NCBI GenBank assembly: GCA_013388755.1
Contig: JACAEQ010000036.1
Span: 1 to 64,000 of the forward strand
Length of the DNA: 64,000 nucleotides
Reading direction: 5' to 3'
Origin: Chloroflexota bacterium
Lineage (GTDB): Bacteria; Chloroflexota; Chloroflexia; Chloroflexales; Roseiflexaceae
Part shown: one piece after another, positions 35,109 to 44,975 of the stretch
How the letters are laid out: each line of letters starts with the position of its first letter
How positions within the stretch are numbered: position 1 is the stretch's first letter
Made by a program: the position numbers and the translations under genes
Notes under the pieces: generated by a model
The model's input: the letters and a program-made list of their open reading frames with translations, nothing else
Database searches by the model: none
What the model was told of the DNA's origin: nothing

Positions 35109-35206
35109 GCAACTTTCACCATGCCGGGTTCGTCGTAAGGGCAGAAAGGAGCGCGACGGCCACGGTGCCCTGCAATCGTCAAACCGGGCCGCGCGAAACG
35201 ACAATA

Positions 35207-35506
35207 ATGGAACAGCGTCAACTTCGTCGCAATCGCAGCGATCGCATTCTCGGCGGGGTCGCTTCAGGTCTGGCGCGTATGCTGAACGTCGATCCGGTTT
35301 TCGTACGGCTGGGCTTTCTGTTTCTTGCCTTGATCAACGGTTTCGGCGCGCTCATCTACATCGCGATGTGGCTCCTGGTTCCCGCCGACGACAGCCACGA
35401 AACCGACCCCCGGGCGCAGATGCGCGAGAACGTCGCCGATATGCAGCAGGTCGCCGAGGAATATGTCGCGCGGGTGCGCAGCATGTTTACCGCGCCGAAC
35501 AACTAG
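35207..35506 (+). CDS. PspC-domain protein (phage-shock protein C family)
   Basis: RSDRILGGVASGLARMLNVDPVFVRLGFLFLALINGFGALIYIAMWLLVP. Confidence 0.75.
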   Translation: MEQRQLRRNRSDRILGGVASGLARMLNVDPVFVRLGFLFLALINGFGALIYIAMWLLVPADDSHETDPRAQMRENVADMQQVAEEYVARVRSMFTAPNN

Positions 35507-36966: not shown

Positions 36967-39900
36967 TTATGGGCGGCAACTGGCATTGTATGGTGCGCTC
37001 TCGAAATAGGTGCGCCATTCACTCTCAGAGAGTGTACGCCCGGCCATACGGCAGGCAACCGTGAGCAGTTCCCCACTGCCGGCCGGCAGCGAATCCGGGG
37101 CAGGCAACGGATCGTCGAGATTCCAGACGCGCGCGATGCCATCAGCGCCGACGCTCATGACCGTTCGTGTTGCAGGTGGGACCACCACACCCGTGACCGG
37201 CCCATCATGGCCGCGTAACAGAAACGGTCTGGCGCCCGGATCGGCGGTTGTCAGATCCCACAGGCCAACACTGCCATCAGCGCTCGCAGTGACAAGGCGA
37301 TCGCCACCACCACTCAGGGCCAGGCCAGTGATGCGATCGGCATGGCCGCGCAGTACCACACGCGCCTGATTGTCATCGCGACCCTCAAGATCCCAGACAC
37401 ACGTCGTGCCGTCGGCGCTGCCGGCGATCACCAGAGGCGCGGTATTCGAGGTCATCAGCAACTGCGTCACCGGCGCGGTAAGACCGAGGAGCACATACGG
37501 CTGATTGAAACTGACGCCGCTGAGGCTCCAGAGCCGCACCTGGCCACCTGCGCTGCCATAGGCGATCCAGCGTCCATTGCCACTGAACGCAATCGACGTC
37601 AGCGGGCCACGCGTCCGTTCCTGGGTGTAGGAGCCTGTACCGGACGACAGGGTATACAGACGCGCCTGGCTGTCGTCATTTCCGGTCGCCAGCAACTGGC
37701 CGTCGGGGCTGAAGGCCAGTGAACGAACGGCACTTTGCCCGCCAAGTCCGCTCAGGCGCTGTGGTGCCGCTGACGGACTGGCAAGATCATAGACCAGCGT
37801 CGCCCCCTGCGCGTCGGCGATCGCCAGCAAACGCCCGTCGGCGCTAAGCGCAATCGCGGTATTGGCGTCACCCGGGCCACTGAGTTCGCGCGCGACAGAC
37901 ACAGCGCTGGAAACGTTCCACAGCCGGACGCTCGCCGCATCACCGCCCGCGGTCACGAGCCGGGTTCCATCGCTGGAGAGCGCGAGCAGCGTCACCGGGC
38001 CAGGCGCCATGGCCGTGCGCGGCGGGGCCGCCAGGTCGGCCAGGTTCCACACCTGAAGCGCACCATCCGCGCCGACGATCGCCGTCACCGTGCCATCACG
38101 GCTGGTTGCGACGGCAGAAGCCGGCCTGGCGATATCCAGCCCGATCCCACCGATGCGTGTCAGCGCATTCCGCAACACTGCATCCGCGACATCAACCGGC
38201 GGCTCACCCTTCGCAAGCGTGACCTGCACCGCCTCAACCGCCAGGAGCAGGCCGCGCACCGGGCGCTCACTACTCTCCGCCTGCGCCAGCGCAGCAAGCT
38301 GGCCGGCACGCGCCTGGCGCGCCTGTTGTTCGAGCGCCGGCACCAGCGCCTCGGCGGTACGGCGCGCCTGTGCCTCCTGCACCGCCGCGAGCGCAACCTC
38401 CGTACCGCGCTGCAGGGCCAGCCCTTCAGCGGCCTGCGCAGTAGCGGCGGCGGCGCGCGCATCGGCAGCGGCAACCTGTGCCGTGGCGGCGGCCTGGTCC
38501 GAGATGACAACCTGCGTTGCAAGGTCGAACGTCCTGGCCTGGATCTGCGACTGTTGCCCGAGGAGGACGACGCCGGAAACGATCGCTCCGGCAAGCGCAA
38601 ATACCAGAGAGGCAACTACAAGGCGCAGGCGGCGGGCAGAACGCGCCTCAGCCTCGGCACGCCGCCCCTGCTCGACGGCCAGCTTCTCACTCTGTTCGGC
38701 CTGGAGGCGTCGCGCTTCGGCCAGCGCCTGGGCCTGCTCCAGCTCATGGCGGGTCCGTTCCTCCTTCTCGTGCCGTGCCTGATCAATCGCCTGACGGCTC
38801 GCCACGACCAGGTCAATCAACGCCTCATCGAAGCCGAGATAGGCGGCCTCAGCACTGTTCAGCCAGCGTTCCGCCTCGATCAATTGCACTTCGTCGAGCA
38901 GTCCTGCCGCTCCGCCCCCCAGGCGCACCCATTCTGCCGCTTTGGCTTCCAGGCGGCGGCGCGACGCAATCGCGGCCCGCTCATCTTCCAGCCAGCCAAC
39001 CAGGGTCGGCCAGTTACGCACGAGCGCCTCGTGCGCAACTTCCACCTGCGCGGCTTCCGGCGTATCGCCCGGCGTCAGGCGCACCAGCCGCGACGCAATC
39101 AGGCGATCGAGCACACGATCGACGCGATCACGCGCTTCACCGGCCCGATAGAGCTGATCACGGCGGATGCGATTGCTGGTAATCTCCAGGCCTTCACCGG
39201 GGCGAACCATACGCATCAGAATACGGCGCGCCGTTACCTGCTCCTCCGGGATCAGGCCATTGTAGAAAGCGTCGGCGCTACGCGCCAGTGCCTGGCGCCC
39301 GCCGCCAATCTGCTGATACGCCTGCCATGTCACCCGATTGCGATCGCGCGCGTCCCACAACTTGAGCAGGGTGAACTGCAACAACGGCAACGCTGCCGGT
39401 TCACCAAGCATGTCGTGCAGCAGCGCCTCAACGACCCCTTGCTCGAACTTCAGCCCGACCAGCTCTGCCGGCCGTTCGATCGCCTCGCGCATTTCGCTGG
39501 CATTGAGCGGCAGCAACTGGACGCGCGCCTGTTCAACCCAGCTTTGCAGGGCAGGTTCGAGCGCAATAAAACTCTCGAAGTCACTGCGCAGCGTCATAAT
39601 GACCAGGTGATCGGGTGAACGATGCTCCGCCAGCGTCACCAGCGCCGCAACAAACGCCCGGCGCTCCACCTCATCGTCGGTGAGGGTAAAGAGCTCCTCG
39701 AGCTGATCGACAAACAGCACCGCCGGCGTCTCCCCGGCCAGCGCCGCGATCACCTGTTGCGGATCGCGTAGTTGATCGGCCAGTTTCTCATCCTGCGCCA
39801 GGTCATCGGGATGCCCCATCATGCGGCGCAACGCACGCGCGAGGTGAACCAGCGGCTGATCGCCGGGGACCATCGGCGGCACATAGCGCCACGCGCGGCT

Positions 39901-40425
39901 ACCCGGGATGGCGTCGTTCTTCAACGCCGGAATGAGGCCGGCGCGCACCACCGACGACTTCCCGGCGCCTGATGGGCCGACCAGCACCAGCATATGGCGC
40001 TCGTTCAGCTTGCCGACAAGATACTCAACCAGGCGCCGGCGGCCAAAGAAGCGCTCGGCATCTTCTTCGCGAAAGGCATCAAGGCCGACATAGGGGCAGC
40101 TTGCATCATCAAGGATCGGCGCGATTTCCGGATCGAACTCTTGGAGTGTTGCGTCCGGCGGATCGTAGCCGTTGCGCATGAGGATCGTGGCCCAGTAGTC
40201 AAGCAAACTCTGCGCCGCCGAGCGCTCGTCCTCATCATCAAGCAGAACGCCTGTGGCGCTGCCGCGGGCAATGATCCTGGCCGCCTGGCTCAACAGTGCC
40301 GGCGTCAGCCCCCCATCGCGCTGGCGCCGCAGCATCTCGGTATGCGCCAGGCGCAGCGCCGCAAACGACGGATAGAGCGAGCCATCATGTTCAGGCGGCT
40401 GTTCCGGCGATGTGGCACGTGTCAT
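36967..40425 (-). CDS. STAND-class P-loop NTPase - coiled coil - TM helix - WD40 beta-propeller protein (1152 aa)
   Basis: CPYVGLDAFREEDAERFFGRR + Walker A LVGPSGAGKSS + Walker B VLFVDQLEE; EVAHEALVRNWPTLVGWL helical motif; predicted TM helix LRLVVASLVFALAGAIVSGVVLLG (~aa 600-623); >=7 WD40-like blades (VRLWNV, TLVYDL, ARLYTL, VRLWSL, TCVWDL, VGLWDL, ARVWNL); start ATG overlaps the CHAT gene stop (ATGA). Confidence 0.85.
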   Translation of the reverse strand: MTRATSPEQPPEHDGSLYPSFAALRLAHTEMLRRQRDGGLTPALLSQAARIIARGSATGVLLDDEDERSAAQSLLDYWATILMRNGYDPPDATLQEFDPEIAPILDDASCPYVGLDAFREEDAERFFGRRRLVEYLVGKLNERHMLVLVGPSGAGKSSVVRAGLIPALKNDAIPGSRAWRYVPPMVPGDQPLVHLARALRRMMGHPDDLAQDEKLADQLRDPQQVIAALAGETPAVLFVDQLEELFTLTDDEVERRAFVAALVTLAEHRSPDHLVIMTLRSDFESFIALEPALQSWVEQARVQLLPLNASEMREAIERPAELVGLKFEQGVVEALLHDMLGEPAALPLLQFTLLKLWDARDRNRVTWQAYQQIGGGRQALARSADAFYNGLIPEEQVTARRILMRMVRPGEGLEITSNRIRRDQLYRAGEARDRVDRVLDRLIASRLVRLTPGDTPEAAQVEVAHEALVRNWPTLVGWLEDERAAIASRRRLEAKAAEWVRLGGGAAGLLDEVQLIEAERWLNSAEAAYLGFDEALIDLVVASRQAIDQARHEKEERTRHELEQAQALAEARRLQAEQSEKLAVEQGRRAEAEARSARRLRLVVASLVFALAGAIVSGVVLLGQQSQIQARTFDLATQVVISDQAAATAQVAAADARAAAATAQAAEGLALQRGTEVALAAVQEAQARRTAEALVPALEQQARQARAGQLAALAQAESSERPVRGLLLAVEAVQVTLAKGEPPVDVADAVLRNALTRIGGIGLDIARPASAVATSRDGTVTAIVGADGALQVWNLADLAAPPRTAMAPGPVTLLALSSDGTRLVTAGGDAASVRLWNVSSAVSVARELSGPGDANTAIALSADGRLLAIADAQGATLVYDLASPSAAPQRLSGLGGQSAVRSLAFSPDGQLLATGNDDSQARLYTLSSGTGSYTQERTRGPLTSIAFSGNGRWIAYGSAGGQVRLWSLSGVSFNQPYVLLGLTAPVTQLLMTSNTAPLVIAGSADGTTCVWDLEGRDDNQARVVLRGHADRITGLALSGGGDRLVTASADGSVGLWDLTTADPGARPFLLRGHDGPVTGVVVPPATRTVMSVGADGIARVWNLDDPLPAPDSLPAGSGELLTVACRMAGRTLSESEWRTYFESAPYNASCRP

Positions 40426-42491
40426 GAGGTCAGCACCTTGAGCACGGATGCCAGCGGATCGCCGACCTTCCGCAACTCATCACACATACGCTTCAGGTCG
40501 ATATCCACGCGAAAGAACCGTTCGCCTGCCTGGCGGCGGAAGCGGCGGAAGAACTGGCGCGCCCGCGCCTGATCACCGGAGTCAAGCGCAGCGGTCACCT
40601 TTTCCGCATCATTTTTCAATGCCGCGCCCCAGGCCTCGGAACTCTCCAGGTAGAGTGGCGCCACGCGCTCGTTGATATCCGGCCATGAAAGCTCCAGTTC
40701 GGTTATATCCTGGTCGATAAACTGCTCGATACGCCGCAGGTCAAGATCAATAATCTGCCAGCGATCATGTTCGTTCACCAGTTCCGTCAGGCCTGTACTG
40801 AGGGTCGCGAGCGCAGCAACACCCAGTTCGAACTGATTGATCCTGGCCGCATCGTAGCCAGCGCCGCCGAGCCACGAGCGAACGGCAGCCATTCCCTGCA
40901 CGAGCGCGGTCAGGCGCAGGGCACGCGCCGCGGCATTGAGCCGCGCATTGATCACGGTCGGCTGCGACGTCAGCACCCGGTTAAGCAACCGACTGGCCTG
41001 CTTCAGACGTTTGACGTCCAGGGCTTCAATGGCAGCCGCCAGTTCTGCCTCCGCATTACTCACATCCGCAACCCATGCCAGTTCGCTTGCCGCGAGCTTA
41101 CCGCGCTCGATCACGCGCCGGAGATCCTCCACGATCCCTTGCAGCGTTACATCATAGTTCGCCATCGCGTCCCACGTCAGGTCATCGTCGGGCAGGCGGC
41201 GCATGTCGGTGATGATCGGATTATAGCAATGGAACTGGAGTGAGTGGAGTTGATCGTGCACATCTTTGTAATCCGCAAGAATATCGATCTGCGCCGCAGC
41301 GGCCTGAAAATCGGCGCGAAAGGCGATCACCGCCTCTCGCACATCACTGCCGGCCTCGATCAGATCGCCCAGCATCTGCATGCCCGCGCCGATCGACTGT
41401 GTTGCACCAGGGGCAACAACCGGCGCCGCACGCGCTACCGGCGGCTCGAACAGGCGACCATCCTCGGCACGTGTATAGATCACCGGCACGCCCCAGTCGG
41501 CGCGACCAAGGCCGGCGACATTCATCACGGCGCGCCGCCCCTCGGTCACGCAGAAATCAATCGGGAACGCATCGGCCAGTGCGCGGTAGAATGCGCCGGC
41601 GAACGCGCGCGTTGCTTCTTCGGGTACCTGAAACTGCATGGCAACAACTGCCGGGATCTGGGCGCGCACCAGTGCCGGTGCAATACTCCGCGCCGGATCG
41701 AGCGCCAGTTGCCCGGTCGAACAGGCATCCAGCACCACCAGGCGCACATTGGCCCGATCGAGCATGATGCCGAGTTGCAGTGAACTGATCGGTTCAGGAT
41801 CGCCGATCTCGTCCTCGAACAACAATCGCCCGGTGGCGCCGTCGGCGGCAAAGCCGCCATGGCCGACGAAATGCCAGATGTGGTACCCTTCGCGCAGGCG
41901 CTCCTGCAGCACTGCAGCTGTCAGGTGCGGCTCGACGGTCACCTGGACCCGGGTGCCAAGGCGTTCGAGCGCCGCGTGGACGGCGGCCAGTTCACGTTCG
42001 ACCTCAGCAGGCGGGGGAGTCTGCGCTGCCGTGAGCAACACTCGCAACGGCAATGGCGCCGCCAGGACCGGCACGCGATCCGGTTGCGGCAAGTGGCGCA
42101 CGATCGGGGCATCAAGTAGCGCAAGCGGGCCGCGATCCGGATCATAGAGGAACTCCCAGGGCAGCGCGCCGGCAGCGGCGGCTGACGACGGGATGTTGAG
42201 CCGCAGGCGCAACCCTTCGTCAGTGCCAAGCGCGCCGCGGCTGCGCACATAGACATCGCGCACCGCGCCGGTGAAGAGCGCATCGAACAGGGCGCGACCG
42301 AGCAGCACCAGGGCTGCTTCATCAACGTCGAGCATGCGCAATCGGGCCAGTAACGCCTGTATTTGCGGATCATCATCAGGCAGGCGTAGTTCACCATCTC
42401 CTTCCTCGCCACGCGGGCCGCGCGCTTTGAGGAGAAAACGGCCATGATCGCCAGCGGTCACGGTAATTTCAAAATCAGCGTATGATTTCAT
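40422..42491 (-). CDS. CHAT-domain (caspase-like HetF/peptidase C14-fold) protein with unknown N- and C-terminal domains
   Basis: Caspase-like His (YHIWHFVGHGGF) and Cys (RLVVLDACSTGQ) dyad motifs, typical CHAT end PAVVAMQFQVPEEATRAFAGAFYRAL; ~300-aa C-terminal helical region of unknown function; start set to MKSYADF (TATACT 7 nt upstream); track ORF extends to 42548. Confidence 0.82.
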   Translation of the reverse strand: MKSYADFEITVTAGDHGRFLLKARGPRGEEGDGELRLPDDDPQIQALLARLRMLDVDEAALVLLGRALFDALFTGAVRDVYVRSRGALGTDEGLRLRLNIPSSAAAAGALPWEFLYDPDRGPLALLDAPIVRHLPQPDRVPVLAAPLPLRVLLTAAQTPPPAEVERELAAVHAALERLGTRVQVTVEPHLTAAVLQERLREGYHIWHFVGHGGFAADGATGRLLFEDEIGDPEPISSLQLGIMLDRANVRLVVLDACSTGQLALDPARSIAPALVRAQIPAVVAMQFQVPEEATRAFAGAFYRALADAFPIDFCVTEGRRAVMNVAGLGRADWGVPVIYTRAEDGRLFEPPVARAAPVVAPGATQSIGAGMQMLGDLIEAGSDVREAVIAFRADFQAAAAQIDILADYKDVHDQLHSLQFHCYNPIITDMRRLPDDDLTWDAMANYDVTLQGIVEDLRRVIERGKLAASELAWVADVSNAEAELAAAIEALDVKRLKQASRLLNRVLTSQPTVINARLNAAARALRLTALVQGMAAVRSWLGGAGYDAARINQFELGVAALATLSTGLTELVNEHDRWQIIDLDLRRIEQFIDQDITELELSWPDINERVAPLYLESSEAWGAALKNDAEKVTAALDSGDQARARQFFRRFRRQAGERFFRVDIDLKRMCDELRKVGDPLASVLKVLTS

Positions 42492-42638
42492 GGATTGGTG
42501 TAGTATAGCATAGTGCTGCGTTGCCGACGAGTATGGAGTATGGTACACTCCCGCGCGCCGATATCAACGAAGCGCGGCATGTCGCGCAATGGACGCATGC
42601 GTCAGCACCTGACAGCAACAGCAAGTGATGAGACGGCA

Positions 42639-44975
42639 ATGCAACCTGCCGCAACCCGATCGTTCGCGGTGCGCATGATTGCGGCTGCAGCGTTTGGTGC
42701 GCTACTGGCGGCATTGCTGGGCCAGATCCCTGTAACGCACCAGGTTGACATCGGTGGGAGCGATGCCGCCTATGTGCGCGGGTTCTACGACCCGGAACGC
42801 AGTGACGCTCCAGGAGCGCCGGCCTATCTCAACGGATCGGATGGCAGCGCCCGCTGGTCGCGTGCCGAGTCCTACCTCCTGTTTCCTCAGGCCGGCCTGC
42901 CCGCCGAGGTGACGATCCGTGTGCGTGGCTGGCGCGCTGGCGCTTCGCCTCCCGCCGTCACGCTCCTGGTAGAGGGCGGCGAAACACGCACCATTGCGAC
43001 GACCGGCGAATGGCAGGACCTCCAGGTTCCGGTCAGCGGCGGTCTTCTGAAACCAGAAGATGTGCTTATCATCCTCCGCACCGAGGTTGCCCCAGCCGGC
43101 AACGGCGATCCGCGGCGGGTGGGCGTTCTGATTGACCGGGCAACGTATCGTACTGCCGCGCCGCCGCTGATGCCATACCCGGCGCAACTGGCATGGGGGG
43201 CGCTGGCCGGCGCATTGCTCTGCCTGGCGCTTACCGCGTATCGCACAACGACTGCACAGGCGCCGGATGCGCCCCGACAACGCGAACATGCGCTCCTTAT
43301 CCCTCCGCCGCTGTTCGCCTGCCTTGCCGGCGCAGGACTCGTCGGCATGCTCTATCTGCTTCTGTACCGGTTCCAGCCGCCCTATCCCTACCCATTGCGC
43401 GGCTTTCTCCCTGCCGTATGTGTCACGCTCGGCGTAGCCGCCGCAGTGCGCCATGGCCCCCGGCTCGCAACGCGCCTGCCGGTGCTGCCGGATGTACTCG
43501 CACCGGGTGGCATTGTTGTGTGGACGGGTATGGTTCTGCTGGCGGCCCGCGAGCATGTCACGCTCTCCGTGCCCGGCGTCGAGAAGGATTTCCGCGTCTT
43601 CGCGACACGCGCGGTCGATCCGGCGCTCATCTTCCGTGCTGACGGATTTTACAACCTGGGCTATCCACTGCTCCTCTGGTGCGTTGCACCGCTGACCGGC
43701 GGTAACCTCTTTCTTGCCGCAACCCTTATCGCCGCCATGTCCGGCGCGCTTCTGCTTGGTGCAACCTGGGTGCTGGTACGTCAGGTGCTCGGGCGCTGGC
43801 CGGCAACCGTGGCTCTGATCGCGCTTGGTTTCAGCCCATTCGTGGTGCAATATGCGTTATACGTCGGCAGCGACATGCCCTTCGCCGCCCTGTGCATCCT
43901 GGCCCTGACGCTGCTACTTGTAAGCGACAGTCGCCGGCCCTGGCCGTACCTGCTCGCCGGCCTGGCCGCTGGCGCCGCGTTCCTTGTGCGCCATCCGGGC
44001 ATCCTGTTGCTTCCGTCTGGCGTGCTCGCGCTGCTGGCGCAACACGCAACGGCCGGCCGGGCGCGTTCATCTCTCAACGCGCTCGTTTTCTGCAGCGCAT
44101 TCTTCATTGCCATTCTTCCACAACTCTTCGTCAATCTACGCGACACCGGCAACCCGATCTACAGCCAGCAGGCCAAGAACGTCTGGCTGGCGGTCTATGG
44201 TGATGGCGATTGGGGGCGCTGGAACGAGGTGAGTAATGATGTGTCCCTGGCTCGCCTGATCGCGGACGACCCGCCACGCTTCGTTGCGGCCTGGTGGACC
44301 AACCTGCGCGGGTTCATCGGCGCCGGAGCAGAGGATACCAGCGAGTCCGGGCGGGCGATGCAATTGCGGCTGCTCGCCTTCCCGGCAAACTGGCTTGCCG
44401 TGCTGGGGATCGCCGGCTGGCTCGCGCTCATCCTGGTGCGCGGCGTGCGTGCGTCGCTGCCACCTCTCGCTCGCGCGCCCCTGATCATCCTGCTTACCTG
44501 GGTTGCACTCTATGCCGGCGCGCTCAGTGTCGGCCTGCCGTTACAACGATTCTTCCTGCCGCTTGCGCCGGTCTACGCGATTGCGGCCGCCTGGGCGCTC
44601 ACCACAGCCGTGCGTCTGCTGGCCGCAGGGCATGCCCGACAACCGGCACGCCTTCAGATCCTTGCCGTGCTGGCGCTCCTGTTCCTGATGTGGGACGGGG
44701 TCACCATCGGCGCGCGCTATGTGCTCGATCGGCAGCCTGCCGCTGAAGTCGCCGCGGTGCGCCTGGTGCAACAGGCGCTGCCACCGGGCGAACGGTTCGG
44801 TGCATCGCTCGCGCCGGGCGACCCGGTCGGCAAGTATTCCGCCATCGCTCACCGCGTCGCATCTGCGGGGGAACCAGCGCGCTACCTGCTCCATAGTACA
44901 GACGCCGGCTCACCGCCTGCAGGAGCAGTCATCGCGACATCCGGCACATACGTACTGCTGCAGGTCGGGCCATGA
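42639..44975 (+). CDS. GT-C fold membrane glycosyltransferase (ArnT/PMT, GT39/GT83-like) with N-terminal extracytoplasmic domain
   Basis: N-terminal TM + ~200-aa soluble domain, then >=10 TM helices; paralogous to the downstream GT39-like gene; start uncertain (42639 or 42675). Confidence 0.6.
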   Translation: MQPAATRSFAVRMIAAAAFGALLAALLGQIPVTHQVDIGGSDAAYVRGFYDPERSDAPGAPAYLNGSDGSARWSRAESYLLFPQAGLPAEVTIRVRGWRAGASPPAVTLLVEGGETRTIATTGEWQDLQVPVSGGLLKPEDVLIILRTEVAPAGNGDPRRVGVLIDRATYRTAAPPLMPYPAQLAWGALAGALLCLALTAYRTTTAQAPDAPRQREHALLIPPPLFACLAGAGLVGMLYLLLYRFQPPYPYPLRGFLPAVCVTLGVAAAVRHGPRLATRLPVLPDVLAPGGIVVWTGMVLLAAREHVTLSVPGVEKDFRVFATRAVDPALIFRADGFYNLGYPLLLWCVAPLTGGNLFLAATLIAAMSGALLLGATWVLVRQVLGRWPATVALIALGFSPFVVQYALYVGSDMPFAALCILALTLLLVSDSRRPWPYLLAGLAAGAAFLVRHPGILLLPSGVLALLAQHATAGRARSSLNALVFCSAFFIAILPQLFVNLRDTGNPIYSQQAKNVWLAVYGDGDWGRWNEVSNDVSLARLIADDPPRFVAAWWTNLRGFIGAGAEDTSESGRAMQLRLLAFPANWLAVLGIAGWLALILVRGVRASLPPLARAPLIILLTWVALYAGALSVGLPLQRFFLPLAPVYAIAAAWALTTAVRLLAAGHARQPARLQILAVLALLFLMWDGVTIGARYVLDRQPAAEVAAVRLVQQALPPGERFGASLAPGDPVGKYSAIAHRVASAGEPARYLLHSTDAGSPPAGAVIATSGTYVLLQVGP

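What the first reader, a model, noticed from the sequence alone, without database searches (positions are those of the whole stretch)
38550..38630. Predicted transmembrane helix between the NTPase and the WD40 propeller of the STAND protein (unusual topology)
Residues ~600-623 (LRLVVASLVFALAGAIVSGVVLLG) form a single strongly hydrophobic helix, preceded by an Arg/Glu-rich coiled coil and followed by the WD40 blades. If real, the NTPase module is cytoplasmic and the propeller is on the other side of the membrane, which would make this an outside-in signalling STAND. Classical STAND/NLR-like proteins are soluble.
Basis: inference. Interest (0 to 1): 0.6.

Follow-up and report, generated by a model that had tools for sequence, protein, structure and literature searches.

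The report
Membrane-spanning helix in bacterial STAND receptor
The hydrophobic helix is real and conserved, so this NLR-like ATPase very probably spans the membrane with its WD40 propeller outside the cell, but the layout is typical of its family and already listed in published tables, so it is an untested member of a known kind.

Summary
Observation confirmed. Residues 600-623 (window 38557-38628, minus strand) of the 1152-aa protein at 36967-40425 read exactly as quoted. They are the only strongly hydrophobic stretch in the protein (Kyte-Doolittle 19-residue mean 2.56; next best 1.15).

The protein has a helical N-domain, an nSTAND1 NTPase (Pfam E=1e-113), a long charged helix, the hydrophobic segment, a ~125-aa helical stalk, a WD40 propeller and a conserved C-tail.

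Evidence for a true N-in/C-out membrane anchor:
- 119 of 120 closest homologs and 122 of 126 further 50%-identity representatives have a hydrophobic segment; almost all have just one, at the same place.
- The aligned columns are 87% hydrophobic and 3% charged, yet are the least conserved in sequence.
- Flanking K+R averages 4.7 on the N side and 1.6 on the C side, and is never reversed.
- Some homologs end in Pro/Thr linkers plus PPC domains, which are typical of secreted proteins.

No dedicated topology predictor or experiment was available. AlphaFold left the segment unstructured.

The layout is not new. Kaur et al. 2021 list "nSTAND1+TM+BetaPropeller" many times in source data. A translationally coupled upstream gene encodes a CHAT protease plus a helical adaptor module. 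Outside-in signalling remains inference. Interest is moderate to low.

The parts
36967..40425 (-). Whole gene: 1152-aa nSTAND1-TM-WD40 protein. It is identical to an NCBI 'hypothetical protein HXY39_05485' from a Chloroflexi MAG.
   Evidence: ORF list; 100% identical database entry P0001; Pfam.
40174..40365 (-). N-terminal three-helix domain (aa 21-84), conserved in the family, with no Pfam match. It is the candidate docking site for the upstream adaptor; that role is inference.
   Evidence: AF2 helices 21-38, 42-61 and 65-84 with pLDDT above 90; invariant G59, R68, Q72 and W78 in alignment A1; no Pfam hit at E<=1.
38920..40095 (-). nSTAND1 STAND NTPase module (aa 111-502). It contains a Walker A motif (GPSGAGKSS, aa 150-158) and a Walker B-like motif (VDQLEELF, invariant D240, Q241, E244).
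   Evidence: PF20703 E=1.3e-113, 381 bits against a cutoff of 27.1; invariant columns.
38629..38826 (-). Charged pre-membrane helix (aa 534-599), rich in Arg, Glu, Ala and Gln, ending in the basic RRLR cluster next to the membrane.
   Evidence: AF2 helix 534-587; 39% charged columns; N-flank K+R mean 4.7.
38557..38628 (-). The finding: a predicted single transmembrane signal-anchor helix (aa 600-623, hydrophobic core 602-622).
   Evidence: KD19 of 2.56, unique in the protein; <H> 0.83 and hydrophobic moment 0.13; present in 119/120 and 122/126 homologs; aligned in register; 87% hydrophobic, 3% charged and lowest sequence conservation.
38155..38532 (-). Post-membrane helical stalk (one 86-residue Ala/Gln-rich helix, aa 632-717) plus two cap helices carrying the conserved LLLAxEA motif (aa 722-757). 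Predicted to be extracytoplasmic.
   Evidence: AF2 helices 632-717, 722-737 and 745-757; L727 and L728 nearly invariant; median stalk length 97 aa, Ala 29% and Gln 12% across homologs. The TM and stalk are absent from TM-less relatives, which keep the LLLAxEA motif.
37120..38145 (-). WD40 beta-propeller (aa 761-1102), the presumed sensor. Predicted to be extracytoplasmic.
   Evidence: PF00400 E=9e-38 and many propeller families; AF2 strands with pLDDT above 90; Foldseek matches to WD40 propellers, including the Thermomonospora prokaryotic WD40 domain 5yzv.
36970..37077 (-). Conserved C-terminal two-helix tail with the motif ACxxAGRxLTxxEWxxYxxxxxYxxTC (C1125, C1150).
   Evidence: Consensus of A1, with E1136 and C1150 at least 90% conserved; AF2 helices 1117-1128 and 1134-1141. 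The tail is also present in the TM-less relative P0171.
40422..42548 (-). Upstream partner gene, 708 aa. Its TGA stop overlaps the STAND gene's ATG (ATGA). The ORF's listed GTG start may be upstream of the true start.
   Evidence: ORF list; sequence ...ACCTCATGACACGT.... The same 4-bp overlap is seen in loci L001-L004.
41520..42299 (-). CHAT (caspase-like) protease domain of the partner protein (aa 84-343), the presumed cytoplasmic effector.
   Evidence: PF12770 E=2.5e-22; NCBIfam HetF-like partial hit; no hydrophobic anchor, KD19 maximum 1.71.
40425..41396 (-). Constant all-helical C-terminal module of the partner protein (aa 385-708). In relatives the same module follows CHAT, TIR, FHA or EAD7 N-terminal domains.

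Best explanation
Residues 600-623 form a single-pass signal-anchor helix, making this nSTAND1 protein a bitopic (N-in/C-out) membrane receptor.

On the cytoplasmic side sit the N-terminal three-helix domain, the nSTAND1 NTPase and a roughly 55-residue charged helix ending in a basic cluster. Outside the cytoplasmic membrane sit an Ala/Gln-rich helical stalk of about 90 residues, a helical cap, the WD40 propeller and the conserved C-tail.

The translationally coupled upstream gene supplies a cytoplasmic CHAT protease. This protease is fused to a constant all-helical module that in relatives carries TIR, FHA or EAD7 domains instead.

Proposed mechanism (inferred, not shown): a ligand or envelope perturbation engages the external propeller. 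This clusters or re-orients the transmembrane and stalk helices, and allows nucleotide-dependent oligomerisation of the cytoplasmic STAND modules. The oligomer then recruits and activates the CHAT protease through the adaptor module. This would be an apoptosome-like switch with its sensor placed outside the cell.

What is shown: the segment, its family-wide conservation, the charge asymmetry, the domain order and the operon. What is inferred: membrane insertion itself, the orientation, the direction of signalling, the identity of the ligand and the output.
For: - Unique hydrophobic peak: KD19 2.56 against the next best 1.15. It is non-amphipathic, with <H> 0.83 and moment 0.13. It exceeds every segment of the neighbouring multi-pass protein.
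- 119 of 120 nearest homologs carry such a segment, and for 112 of them it is the only one. 122 of 126 further 50%-identity representatives also have one, nearly always at residues ~510-670.
- The segments align in register while their sequences diverge. These columns are 87% hydrophobic, 3% charged and 99% occupied, with the lowest residue conservation of any region.
- Positive-inside: K+R within 15 residues averages 4.71 (N side) against 1.62 (C side). N exceeds C in 113 of 119 homologs and is never lower.
- AF2 models both flanking modules confidently (mean pLDDT 88) and does not bury the segment in either.
- Homologs P0043 and P0077 extend past the propeller with Pro/Thr linkers and PPC domains above the Pfam cutoff. 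PPC domains are typical of secreted peptidases (established knowledge).
- The CHAT partner has no anchor and is translationally coupled.
- The partner's constant module is combined with CHAT, TIR, FHA or EAD7.
- Independent annotators reached the same architecture, 'nSTAND1+TM+BetaPropeller'.
- Cytoplasmic kinase, TM and periplasmic WD40 is a published precedent.
Against: - No dedicated topology predictor (TMHMM, DeepTMHMM, Phobius) and no experiment was available.
- AF2 gives pLDDT below 50 and no helix for residues 578-628.
- From composition alone, 2% of shuffles reach the observed hydropathy.
- A Wimley-White octanol scan ranks a WD40 strand region (965-983, -6.0) above the segment (-4.9).
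- TM-less relatives (P0110, P0212, P0234, P0171) keep the same pre-propeller motif, WD40 domain and even the Cys-containing tail. The same sensor type therefore also works in the cytoplasm. The conserved Cys pair cannot be used as evidence for an oxidising, external location.
- No ligand, no phenotype and no PADLOC defence-system match exist. The signalling direction is pure inference.
Confidence: 0.6

Rival explanations
1. The helix is a true membrane span, but the external stalk and propeller act as a positioning or cell-wall-binding anchor rather than as the sensor. They would, for example, hold the complex at the septum or envelope of a filamentous bacterium. The trigger would be sensed in the cytoplasm by the NTPase, the N-domain or the adaptor.
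For: - TM-less relatives with the same propeller show that the family can work entirely in the cytoplasm.
- The stalk is compositionally simple and variable in length (26-229 aa), like a spacer.
- JGI names for homologs include RodZ and FtsL, which are bitopic envelope-positioned proteins.
- The N-domain and NTPase are the most conserved parts.
Against: - In characterised STAND and NLR proteins the C-terminal repeat domain is the ligand sensor (established knowledge).
- The propeller is less conserved than the NTPase (majority-residue frequency 0.48 against 0.69), as expected for a diversifying sensor.
- No peptidoglycan-binding domain (LysM, PASTA, SH3b, OmpA) was found in the query.
Confidence: 0.2
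2. Inside-out control: nucleotide state of the cytoplasmic STAND module alters the oligomeric state or exposure of the external propeller. This would regulate adhesion, filament cohesion or surface interactions. The CHAT protein would act as a regulator rather than as the output.
For: - Long continuous helices on both sides of the membrane (534-587 and 632-717) could transmit changes in either direction.
- The family is concentrated in filamentous or multicellular lineages such as Roseiflexus, Oscillochloris, Kouleothrix and filamentous cyanobacteria. Kaur et al. give statistics for this association.
Against: - The partner gene's N-terminal domains (CHAT, TIR, FHA, EAD7) are those catalogued as effectors or effector adaptors of conflict systems. 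That fits a cytoplasmic output.
- I know of no precedent for inside-out signalling by a STAND NTPase.
Confidence: 0.1
3. The segment is not inserted in the membrane. It would be the greasy core of a soluble oligomeric helical bundle, continuous with the flanking coiled coils, and both domains would be cytoplasmic.
For: - It is flanked by long helices.
- TM-less relatives exist.
- AF2 gives no confident helix here.
- Hydropathy is only modestly beyond shuffles of this Ala/Leu/Val-rich protein.
Against: - A 21-29-residue stretch with no charge, 87% hydrophobic across the family and with minimal sequence conservation is typical of a lipid-facing helix, not of a specific protein-protein core.
- The charge asymmetry is strict and directional.
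- The hydrophobic moment is very low.
- PPC domains and Pro/Thr linkers occur at the far C-terminus of homologs.
- Independent annotation as TM.
Confidence: 0.07

Closest known systems
nSTAND1+TM+BetaPropeller proteins catalogued in Kaur, Iyer, Burroughs & Aravind 2021 (eLife 10:e70394, Figure 2 source data 1, section 8)
   Same: - Same NTPase family (PF20703).
- Same order of NTPase, TM and beta-propeller.
- An effector gene immediately upstream (TIR+DrHyd, CASPASE and others in their tables; CHAT here).
- Same phyla, including Chloroflexi.
   Different: - This locus and its close relatives are not among the table rows I read.
- The partner here is CHAT plus an undescribed all-helical constant module.
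- My term searches of the paper's main text found no discussion of the TM or of what it implies for topology.
Apaf-1 / apoptosome-type STAND proteins (NTPase + WD40 sensor + caspase activation)
   Same: - STAND NTPase followed by a helical region and a WD40 propeller sensor.
- A caspase-superfamily protease as partner.
- Foldseek retrieves Apaf-1 chains 3shf and 5juy.
   Different: - Apaf-1 is soluble and belongs to the AP-ATPase (NB-ARC) clade, not nSTAND1.
- Whole-chain TM-scores are only about 0.15-0.25.
- Here a membrane span and a stalk separate the NTPase from the propeller, and the protease is recruited through a different adaptor.
Bacterial receptor Ser/Thr kinases with a cytoplasmic kinase, single TM and periplasmic WD40/TPR arrays (Planctomycetota, Genome Biol Evol 2024, PMC11032199); also M. 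tuberculosis PknD with an external NHL propeller (from memory)
   Same: - An ATP-using cytoplasmic N-terminal module, one TM helix and a C-terminal beta-propeller predicted to be outside.
- The same topological argument applies: ATP is absent outside the cell.
   Different: The output module is a kinase, not a STAND NTPase with a protease partner. The topology of those kinases also rests on DeepTMHMM prediction.
TM-containing bacterial NACHT proteins (Kibby et al. 2022/2023) and NACHT/nSTAND1-CLec DGR targets (Dore et al. 2024, PNAS)
   Same: - STAND proteins whose C-terminal regions include TM segments, alone or combined with receptor-type repeats.
- A periplasmic location has been predicted for sensor domains of some STAND targets.
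   Different: They belong to a different NTPase clade (NACHT) and carry different sensors (FGS/CLec, multi-pass TMs). The nSTAND1 DGR targets in that paper were predicted to be cytoplasmic.

Membership tests
nSTAND1 STAND NTPase (Pfam PF20703) | Full-length match to the family HMM above the gathering score | tested here: met
   381 bits against a cutoff of 27.1, E=1.3e-113, profile positions 1-374 of 379.
nSTAND1 STAND NTPase (Pfam PF20703) | P-loop Walker A (GxxGxGKS/T) and Walker B acidic motif | tested here: met
   GPSGAGKSS at aa 150-158, with G155, K156 and S158 invariant. VDQLEELF has invariant D240, Q241 and E244 in alignment A1.
'nSTAND1+TM+BetaPropeller' architecture with upstream effector gene (Kaur et al. 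2021 source data) | Domain order NTPase - one TM - beta-propeller in one polypeptide | tested here: met
   Pfam nSTAND1 at 111-502 and WD40 at about 761-1102, with a single hydrophobic segment at 600-623 between them.
'nSTAND1+TM+BetaPropeller' architecture with upstream effector gene (Kaur et al. 2021 source data) | Adjacent, co-oriented effector gene | tested here: met
   A CHAT gene lies directly upstream with an ATGA overlap. The same arrangement occurs with CHAT or FHA in L001-L004.
Bitopic (single-pass, N-in/C-out) membrane protein | One uncharged hydrophobic stretch of at least 19 residues, not amphipathic | tested here: met
   29 uncharged residues, KD19 2.56, <H> 0.83, moment 0.13.
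Bitopic (single-pass, N-in/C-out) membrane protein | Positive-inside charge bias fixing the orientation | tested here: met
   The query N flank (RRAEAEARSARRLRL) has 6 K/R and the C flank has 1. Family means are 4.71 and 1.62, with N>C in 113 of 119 and never reversed.
Bitopic (single-pass, N-in/C-out) membrane protein | Call by a trained topology predictor (TMHMM, DeepTMHMM, Phobius, TOPCONS) | not testable with these tools
Only hydropathy scales were computed. The Wimley-White octanol scale did not single the segment out.
Bitopic (single-pass, N-in/C-out) membrane protein | Experimental membrane integration and opposite-side location of the two halves | not testable with these tools
   This needs fractionation, PhoA/LacZ/GFP fusions or protease accessibility assays.
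Known anti-phage defence systems (PADLOC-DB v2) | Significant match of either protein to a defence-system model | tested here: not met
   The STAND protein gives only P-loop-level hits to mad3 and mad8 (E about 0.002-0.006). The CHAT protein gives a weak SAVED_CHAT hit (E=5.7e-7, 27 bits).
EAD-paired conflict systems (same effector-associated domain on NTPase and effector; Kaur et al. 2020/2021) | A shared homologous EAD at the N-terminus of the NTPase and on the effector protein | tested here: not met
   BLASTP of STAND aa 1-109 against the CHAT protein gives no significant match (best E=4.4). Neither region hits a Pfam EAD family. Only pairwise BLASTP and Pfam were tried, not profile-profile comparison. 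Some relatives of the partner protein do carry EAD7 at their N-terminus.

The most novel reading that the evidence does not exclude
A large and so far unstudied class of bacterial NLR-like receptors would work as true transmembrane pattern-recognition receptors. A WD40 ectodomain held on a helical stalk would detect an extracellular or cell-wall-level cue, such as phage adsorption, damage to a neighbouring cell or non-kin contact. Detection would drive apoptosome-like oligomerisation of the STAND NTPase across the membrane, which would then fire a cytoplasmic caspase-like (CHAT), TIR or FHA effector. This would combine surface-receptor logic and inflammasome logic in one polypeptide.
Probability: 0.35. 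Interest if true: 0.65.

Novelty: new member of a known kind. Interest (0 to 1): 0.35.

Why it matters
STAND/NLR immunity is normally described as surveillance of the cytoplasm. If the predicted topology holds, a family with over 17,000 50%-identity cluster representatives places its repeat sensor outside the cell. The family is found mainly in filamentous or multicellular bacteria. It would give a tractable model for how STAND oligomerisation can be driven across a membrane, and for what bacteria sense at their surface before a phage genome enters. TM-less sister proteins with the same propeller offer natural controls.

For this scan, the practical conclusion is different. The feature is real but typical of its family and already catalogued. 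Its value lies in the untested biology of the family, not in this locus being exceptional.

Tried and rejected
- **Conserved Cys pair in the C-tail (C1125/C1150) as evidence for an external disulfide.** Rejected, because the TM-less relative P0171 has the same tail.
- **Precomputed PA14 and BiPBP_C hits in P0040 and P0058 as evidence for an external location.** On inspection, the C-terminal ~400 residues of both, and the earlier WD40 masking of the rest, showed only WD40 repeats with no room for such domains. I treated these hits as spurious.
- **Wimley-White octanol scan.** It does not single out the segment, because a WD40 strand region scores lower.
- **Composition shuffles.** They give only about 2% exceedance, so the argument rests on conservation rather than on hydropathy alone.
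- **AF2 of the full protein.** It gave no helix and pLDDT below 50 at the segment. This shows the segment is not buried in a domain but does not otherwise inform on insertion.
- **Shared EAD between the STAND N-domain and the CHAT protein.** No similarity by BLASTP or Pfam.
- **PADLOC and NCBIfam.** No informative family beyond CHAT/HetF-like and P-loop noise.
- **tblastn of the protein against the window.** No paralog found.
- **Literature searches for an explicit discussion or experiment on nSTAND1-TM-WD40 topology.** None found in the searchable library. Only the tabulated architectures turned up.
Full report
**What is there.** The ORF on the minus strand at 36967..40425 encodes a 1152-aa protein. 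It is identical to an NCBI 'hypothetical protein HXY39_05485' from a Chloroflexi metagenome-assembled genome and about 75% identical to Roseiflexus proteins. The coordinates in the finding are therefore correct.

**Domain layout.** Pfam places an nSTAND1 STAND NTPase at residues 111-502 (E=1.3e-113) and WD40 repeats across the C-terminal third. An AlphaFold2 model built on a 91-sequence alignment has mean pLDDT 88. It shows the following, in order:
- a three-helix N-domain (21-84);
- the NTPase;
- a long charged helix (534-587);
- a low-confidence gap (578-628) that contains the segment;
- an 86-residue helix (632-717) and two cap helices (722-757);
- a propeller (761-1102);
- a two-helix tail (1117-1141).

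The blades therefore do not directly follow the hydrophobic segment. A helical stalk of about 125 residues intervenes.

**Is the segment more than chance?** Within the protein it is unique. The Kyte-Doolittle 19-residue mean peaks at 2.56, and the next best window anywhere scores 1.15. The uncharged run is 29 residues. The Eisenberg mean hydrophobicity is 0.83 with a helical moment of only 0.13, so this is not an amphipathic surface or buried helix. The segment is more hydrophobic than any of the 14 hydrophobic segments of the neighbouring 820-aa multi-pass ORF (maximum 2.16) and than the soluble neighbours (maximum 1.71).

Two caveats apply. The protein is rich in Ala, Leu and Val, so 96 of 5000 composition-preserving shuffles also reach 2.56. 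A Wimley-White octanol scan ranks a WD40 strand region slightly above the segment. Hydropathy alone would be suggestive, not conclusive.

**Comparative evidence.**
- Of the 120 best database homologs (36-100% identity), 119 contain such a segment at residues ~540-650, directly after a basic cluster. For 112 of them it is the only one; seven also have a weaker second segment elsewhere.
- The segments align in register.
- A full HMMER scan of 1.84 billion cluster representatives with residues 1-640 found 17,193 representatives at E<=1e-30. Of the 126 new sequences among the best 150, 122 have a hydrophobic segment, in nearly all of them at roughly residues 510-670.
- In the alignment these columns are 87% hydrophobic, 3% charged and 99% occupied. 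They also have the lowest residue conservation of any region, 0.41 against 0.69 for the NTPase. Conserved character with unconserved sequence is the expected pattern for a lipid-facing anchor.
- The charge bias is strict. K+R within 15 residues averages 4.71 on the N side and 1.62 on the C side. N exceeds C in 113 of 119 proteins and is never lower.

By the positive-inside rule, and because the NTPase needs ATP, the N-terminal half is cytoplasmic and everything after residue 623 is outside the cytoplasmic membrane.

**Independent hints for an external C-terminal half.** Homologs P0043 and P0077 both have the TM. They continue beyond the propeller with Pro/Thr-rich linkers and PPC (pre-peptidase C-terminal) domains above the Pfam cutoff. 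This domain is typical of secreted proteins. A published survey of Planctomycetota kinases predicts the analogous layout of cytoplasmic kinase, single TM and periplasmic WD40 arrays.

Two hints did not survive checking:
- The conserved Cys pair of the C-tail also occurs in a TM-less relative.
- The precomputed PA14 hits in two homologs look spurious, since the parts I inspected are WD40 repeats throughout.

**Counter-evidence and limits.** No trained topology predictor and no experiment was available. AF2 assigned neither helix nor confidence to residues 578-628. This shows the segment is not packed into a domain but says nothing positive about insertion.

A few close relatives (P0110, P0212, P0234, P0171) lack the TM and stalk. 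They keep the pre-propeller LLLAxEA motif, the WD40 domain and the tail. In another relative (P0135) the region after the coiled coil resembles a histidine-kinase C-terminus by eye; I did not run a domain scan on it. So the same sensor type also operates in the cytoplasm, and the TM-plus-stalk unit behaves as an insertable cassette. The stalk is Ala/Gln-rich (29% and 12%) and variable in length, with a median of 97 residues from the TM to the motif.

**Genomic context and likely mechanism.** The upstream gene (40422..42548, minus strand) encodes a CHAT caspase-like protease. Its TGA stop overlaps the ATG of the STAND gene. It has no hydrophobic anchor. Its C-terminal 324 residues form a confidently modelled all-helical module (pLDDT 90). 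This module has no Pfam match and only generic helical-bundle neighbours in the PDB.

The same module, with the same 4-bp overlap to an nSTAND1-TM-WD40 gene, follows different N-terminal domains in other genomes:
- CHAT in Oscillochloris;
- FHA in another lineage;
- a 402-aa protein with a separate CHAT gene upstream in a cyanobacterium.

Database relatives of the module carry CHAT, TIR or EAD7 N-termini. This is the 'variable effector plus constant adaptor next to a STAND NTPase' logic of the conflict systems described by Kaur et al..

The most likely working model is as follows. Events at the external propeller change the packing of the transmembrane and stalk helices. This permits NTP-dependent oligomerisation of the cytoplasmic NTPase. 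The oligomer then engages the adaptor module and activates the protease. All steps after 'the helix spans the membrane' are inference.

The rivals are:
- a pure positioning role for the ectodomain;
- inside-out control;
- a non-membrane hydrophobic bundle, which I consider unlikely.

**Comparison with what is known.** The family name nSTAND1 comes from Kaur et al. 2021. Their Figure 2 source data list 'nSTAND1+TM+...' 412 times and 'TM+BetaPropeller' 280 times. Rows such as 'TIR+DrHyd-> nSTAND1+TM+BetaPropeller' and 'CASPASE+nSTAND1+TM+BetaPropeller' come from Verrucomicrobia, Acidobacteria, Bacteroidetes, Cyanobacteria, Actinobacteria and Chloroflexi.

My term searches of their main text found no discussion of this TM. 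Kibby et al. note that bacterial NACHT C-termini include a TM-containing class, also in combination with receptor-type repeats. Dore et al. predict periplasmic sensor domains for some STAND proteins. I found no experimental work on any nSTAND1-TM-WD40 protein in the searchable library. Structurally, the nearest solved analogues are WD40 propellers and, at low whole-chain TM-score, Apaf-1. The protein matches no PADLOC defence model.

**Verdict.** I put about 0.9 on a membrane span, about 0.8 on N-in/C-out, and about 0.6 on the full receptor model. The claim of unusualness does not hold inside this family, where the TM is the norm and the architecture is already catalogued. The locus is a new member of a known kind. 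The open and interesting question is whether STAND oligomerisation is really driven from outside the cell. That question belongs to the whole family and needs experiments.

Noticed in passing
[not shown]
   Followed up: yes
window 40174..40365 (-), aa 21-84 of the STAND protein: A highly conserved three-helix N-terminal domain (invariant G59, R68, Q72, W78) sits ahead of the NTPase. It has no Pfam match and no BLASTP similarity to the CHAT protein. It may be the docking surface for the adaptor module.
   Followed up: partly
window 36970..37077 (-), aa 1117-1152: The conserved C-terminal tail motif ACxxAGRxLTxxEWxxYxxxxxYxxTC contains two Cys. A regex found it in at least 80 of 238 relatives, and it is also present in the TM-less relative P0171. 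Its function is unknown.
   Followed up: partly
homologs P0110, P0212, P0234, P0171, P0135 (database proteins, not in the window): These are TM-less sister proteins. Three go straight from the coiled coil to the LLLAxEA motif and WD40 domain, without the TM and stalk. In P0135 the region after the coiled coil resembles a histidine-kinase C-terminus by eye (no domain scan run). The TM-plus-stalk therefore behaves as a gain/loss cassette.
   Followed up: partly
homologs P0043 (aa 1613-1909), P0077 (aa 1624-1899), P0082 (aa 1440-1880): These homologs have extensions beyond the propeller. P0043 and P0077 have Pro/Thr-rich linkers plus PPC domains. In P0082, TPR repeats precede a weak PPC-like region. 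Other relatives (P0083, P0091, P0103, P0104, P0115, P0118) end in a conserved Cys-containing TPR-like helical domain.
   Followed up: partly
window 42513..44975 (+): An 820-aa ORF divergent from the CHAT gene has 14 hydrophobic segments, so it is a multi-pass membrane protein. By eye it could be a glycosyltransferase-like protein, but this was not tested. Its listed start overlaps the listed start of the CHAT ORF, so at least one of the two start codons is probably further downstream.
   Followed up: no
window 35165..35506 (+): A 113-aa ORF has one hydrophobic segment (KD19 2.12). Its N-terminal sequence (RILGGVASGLARMLNVDPVFVRLGFL) looks PspC-like by eye. No domain search was run.
   Followed up: no
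one search hit table (JGI annotations of homologs P0028, P0040): Some homologs are auto-named 'WD40 repeat protein/cytoskeletal protein RodZ' or '/cell division protein FtsL'. This probably reflects matches of the TM and coiled-coil region to those bitopic proteins rather than a real relationship.
   Followed up: no
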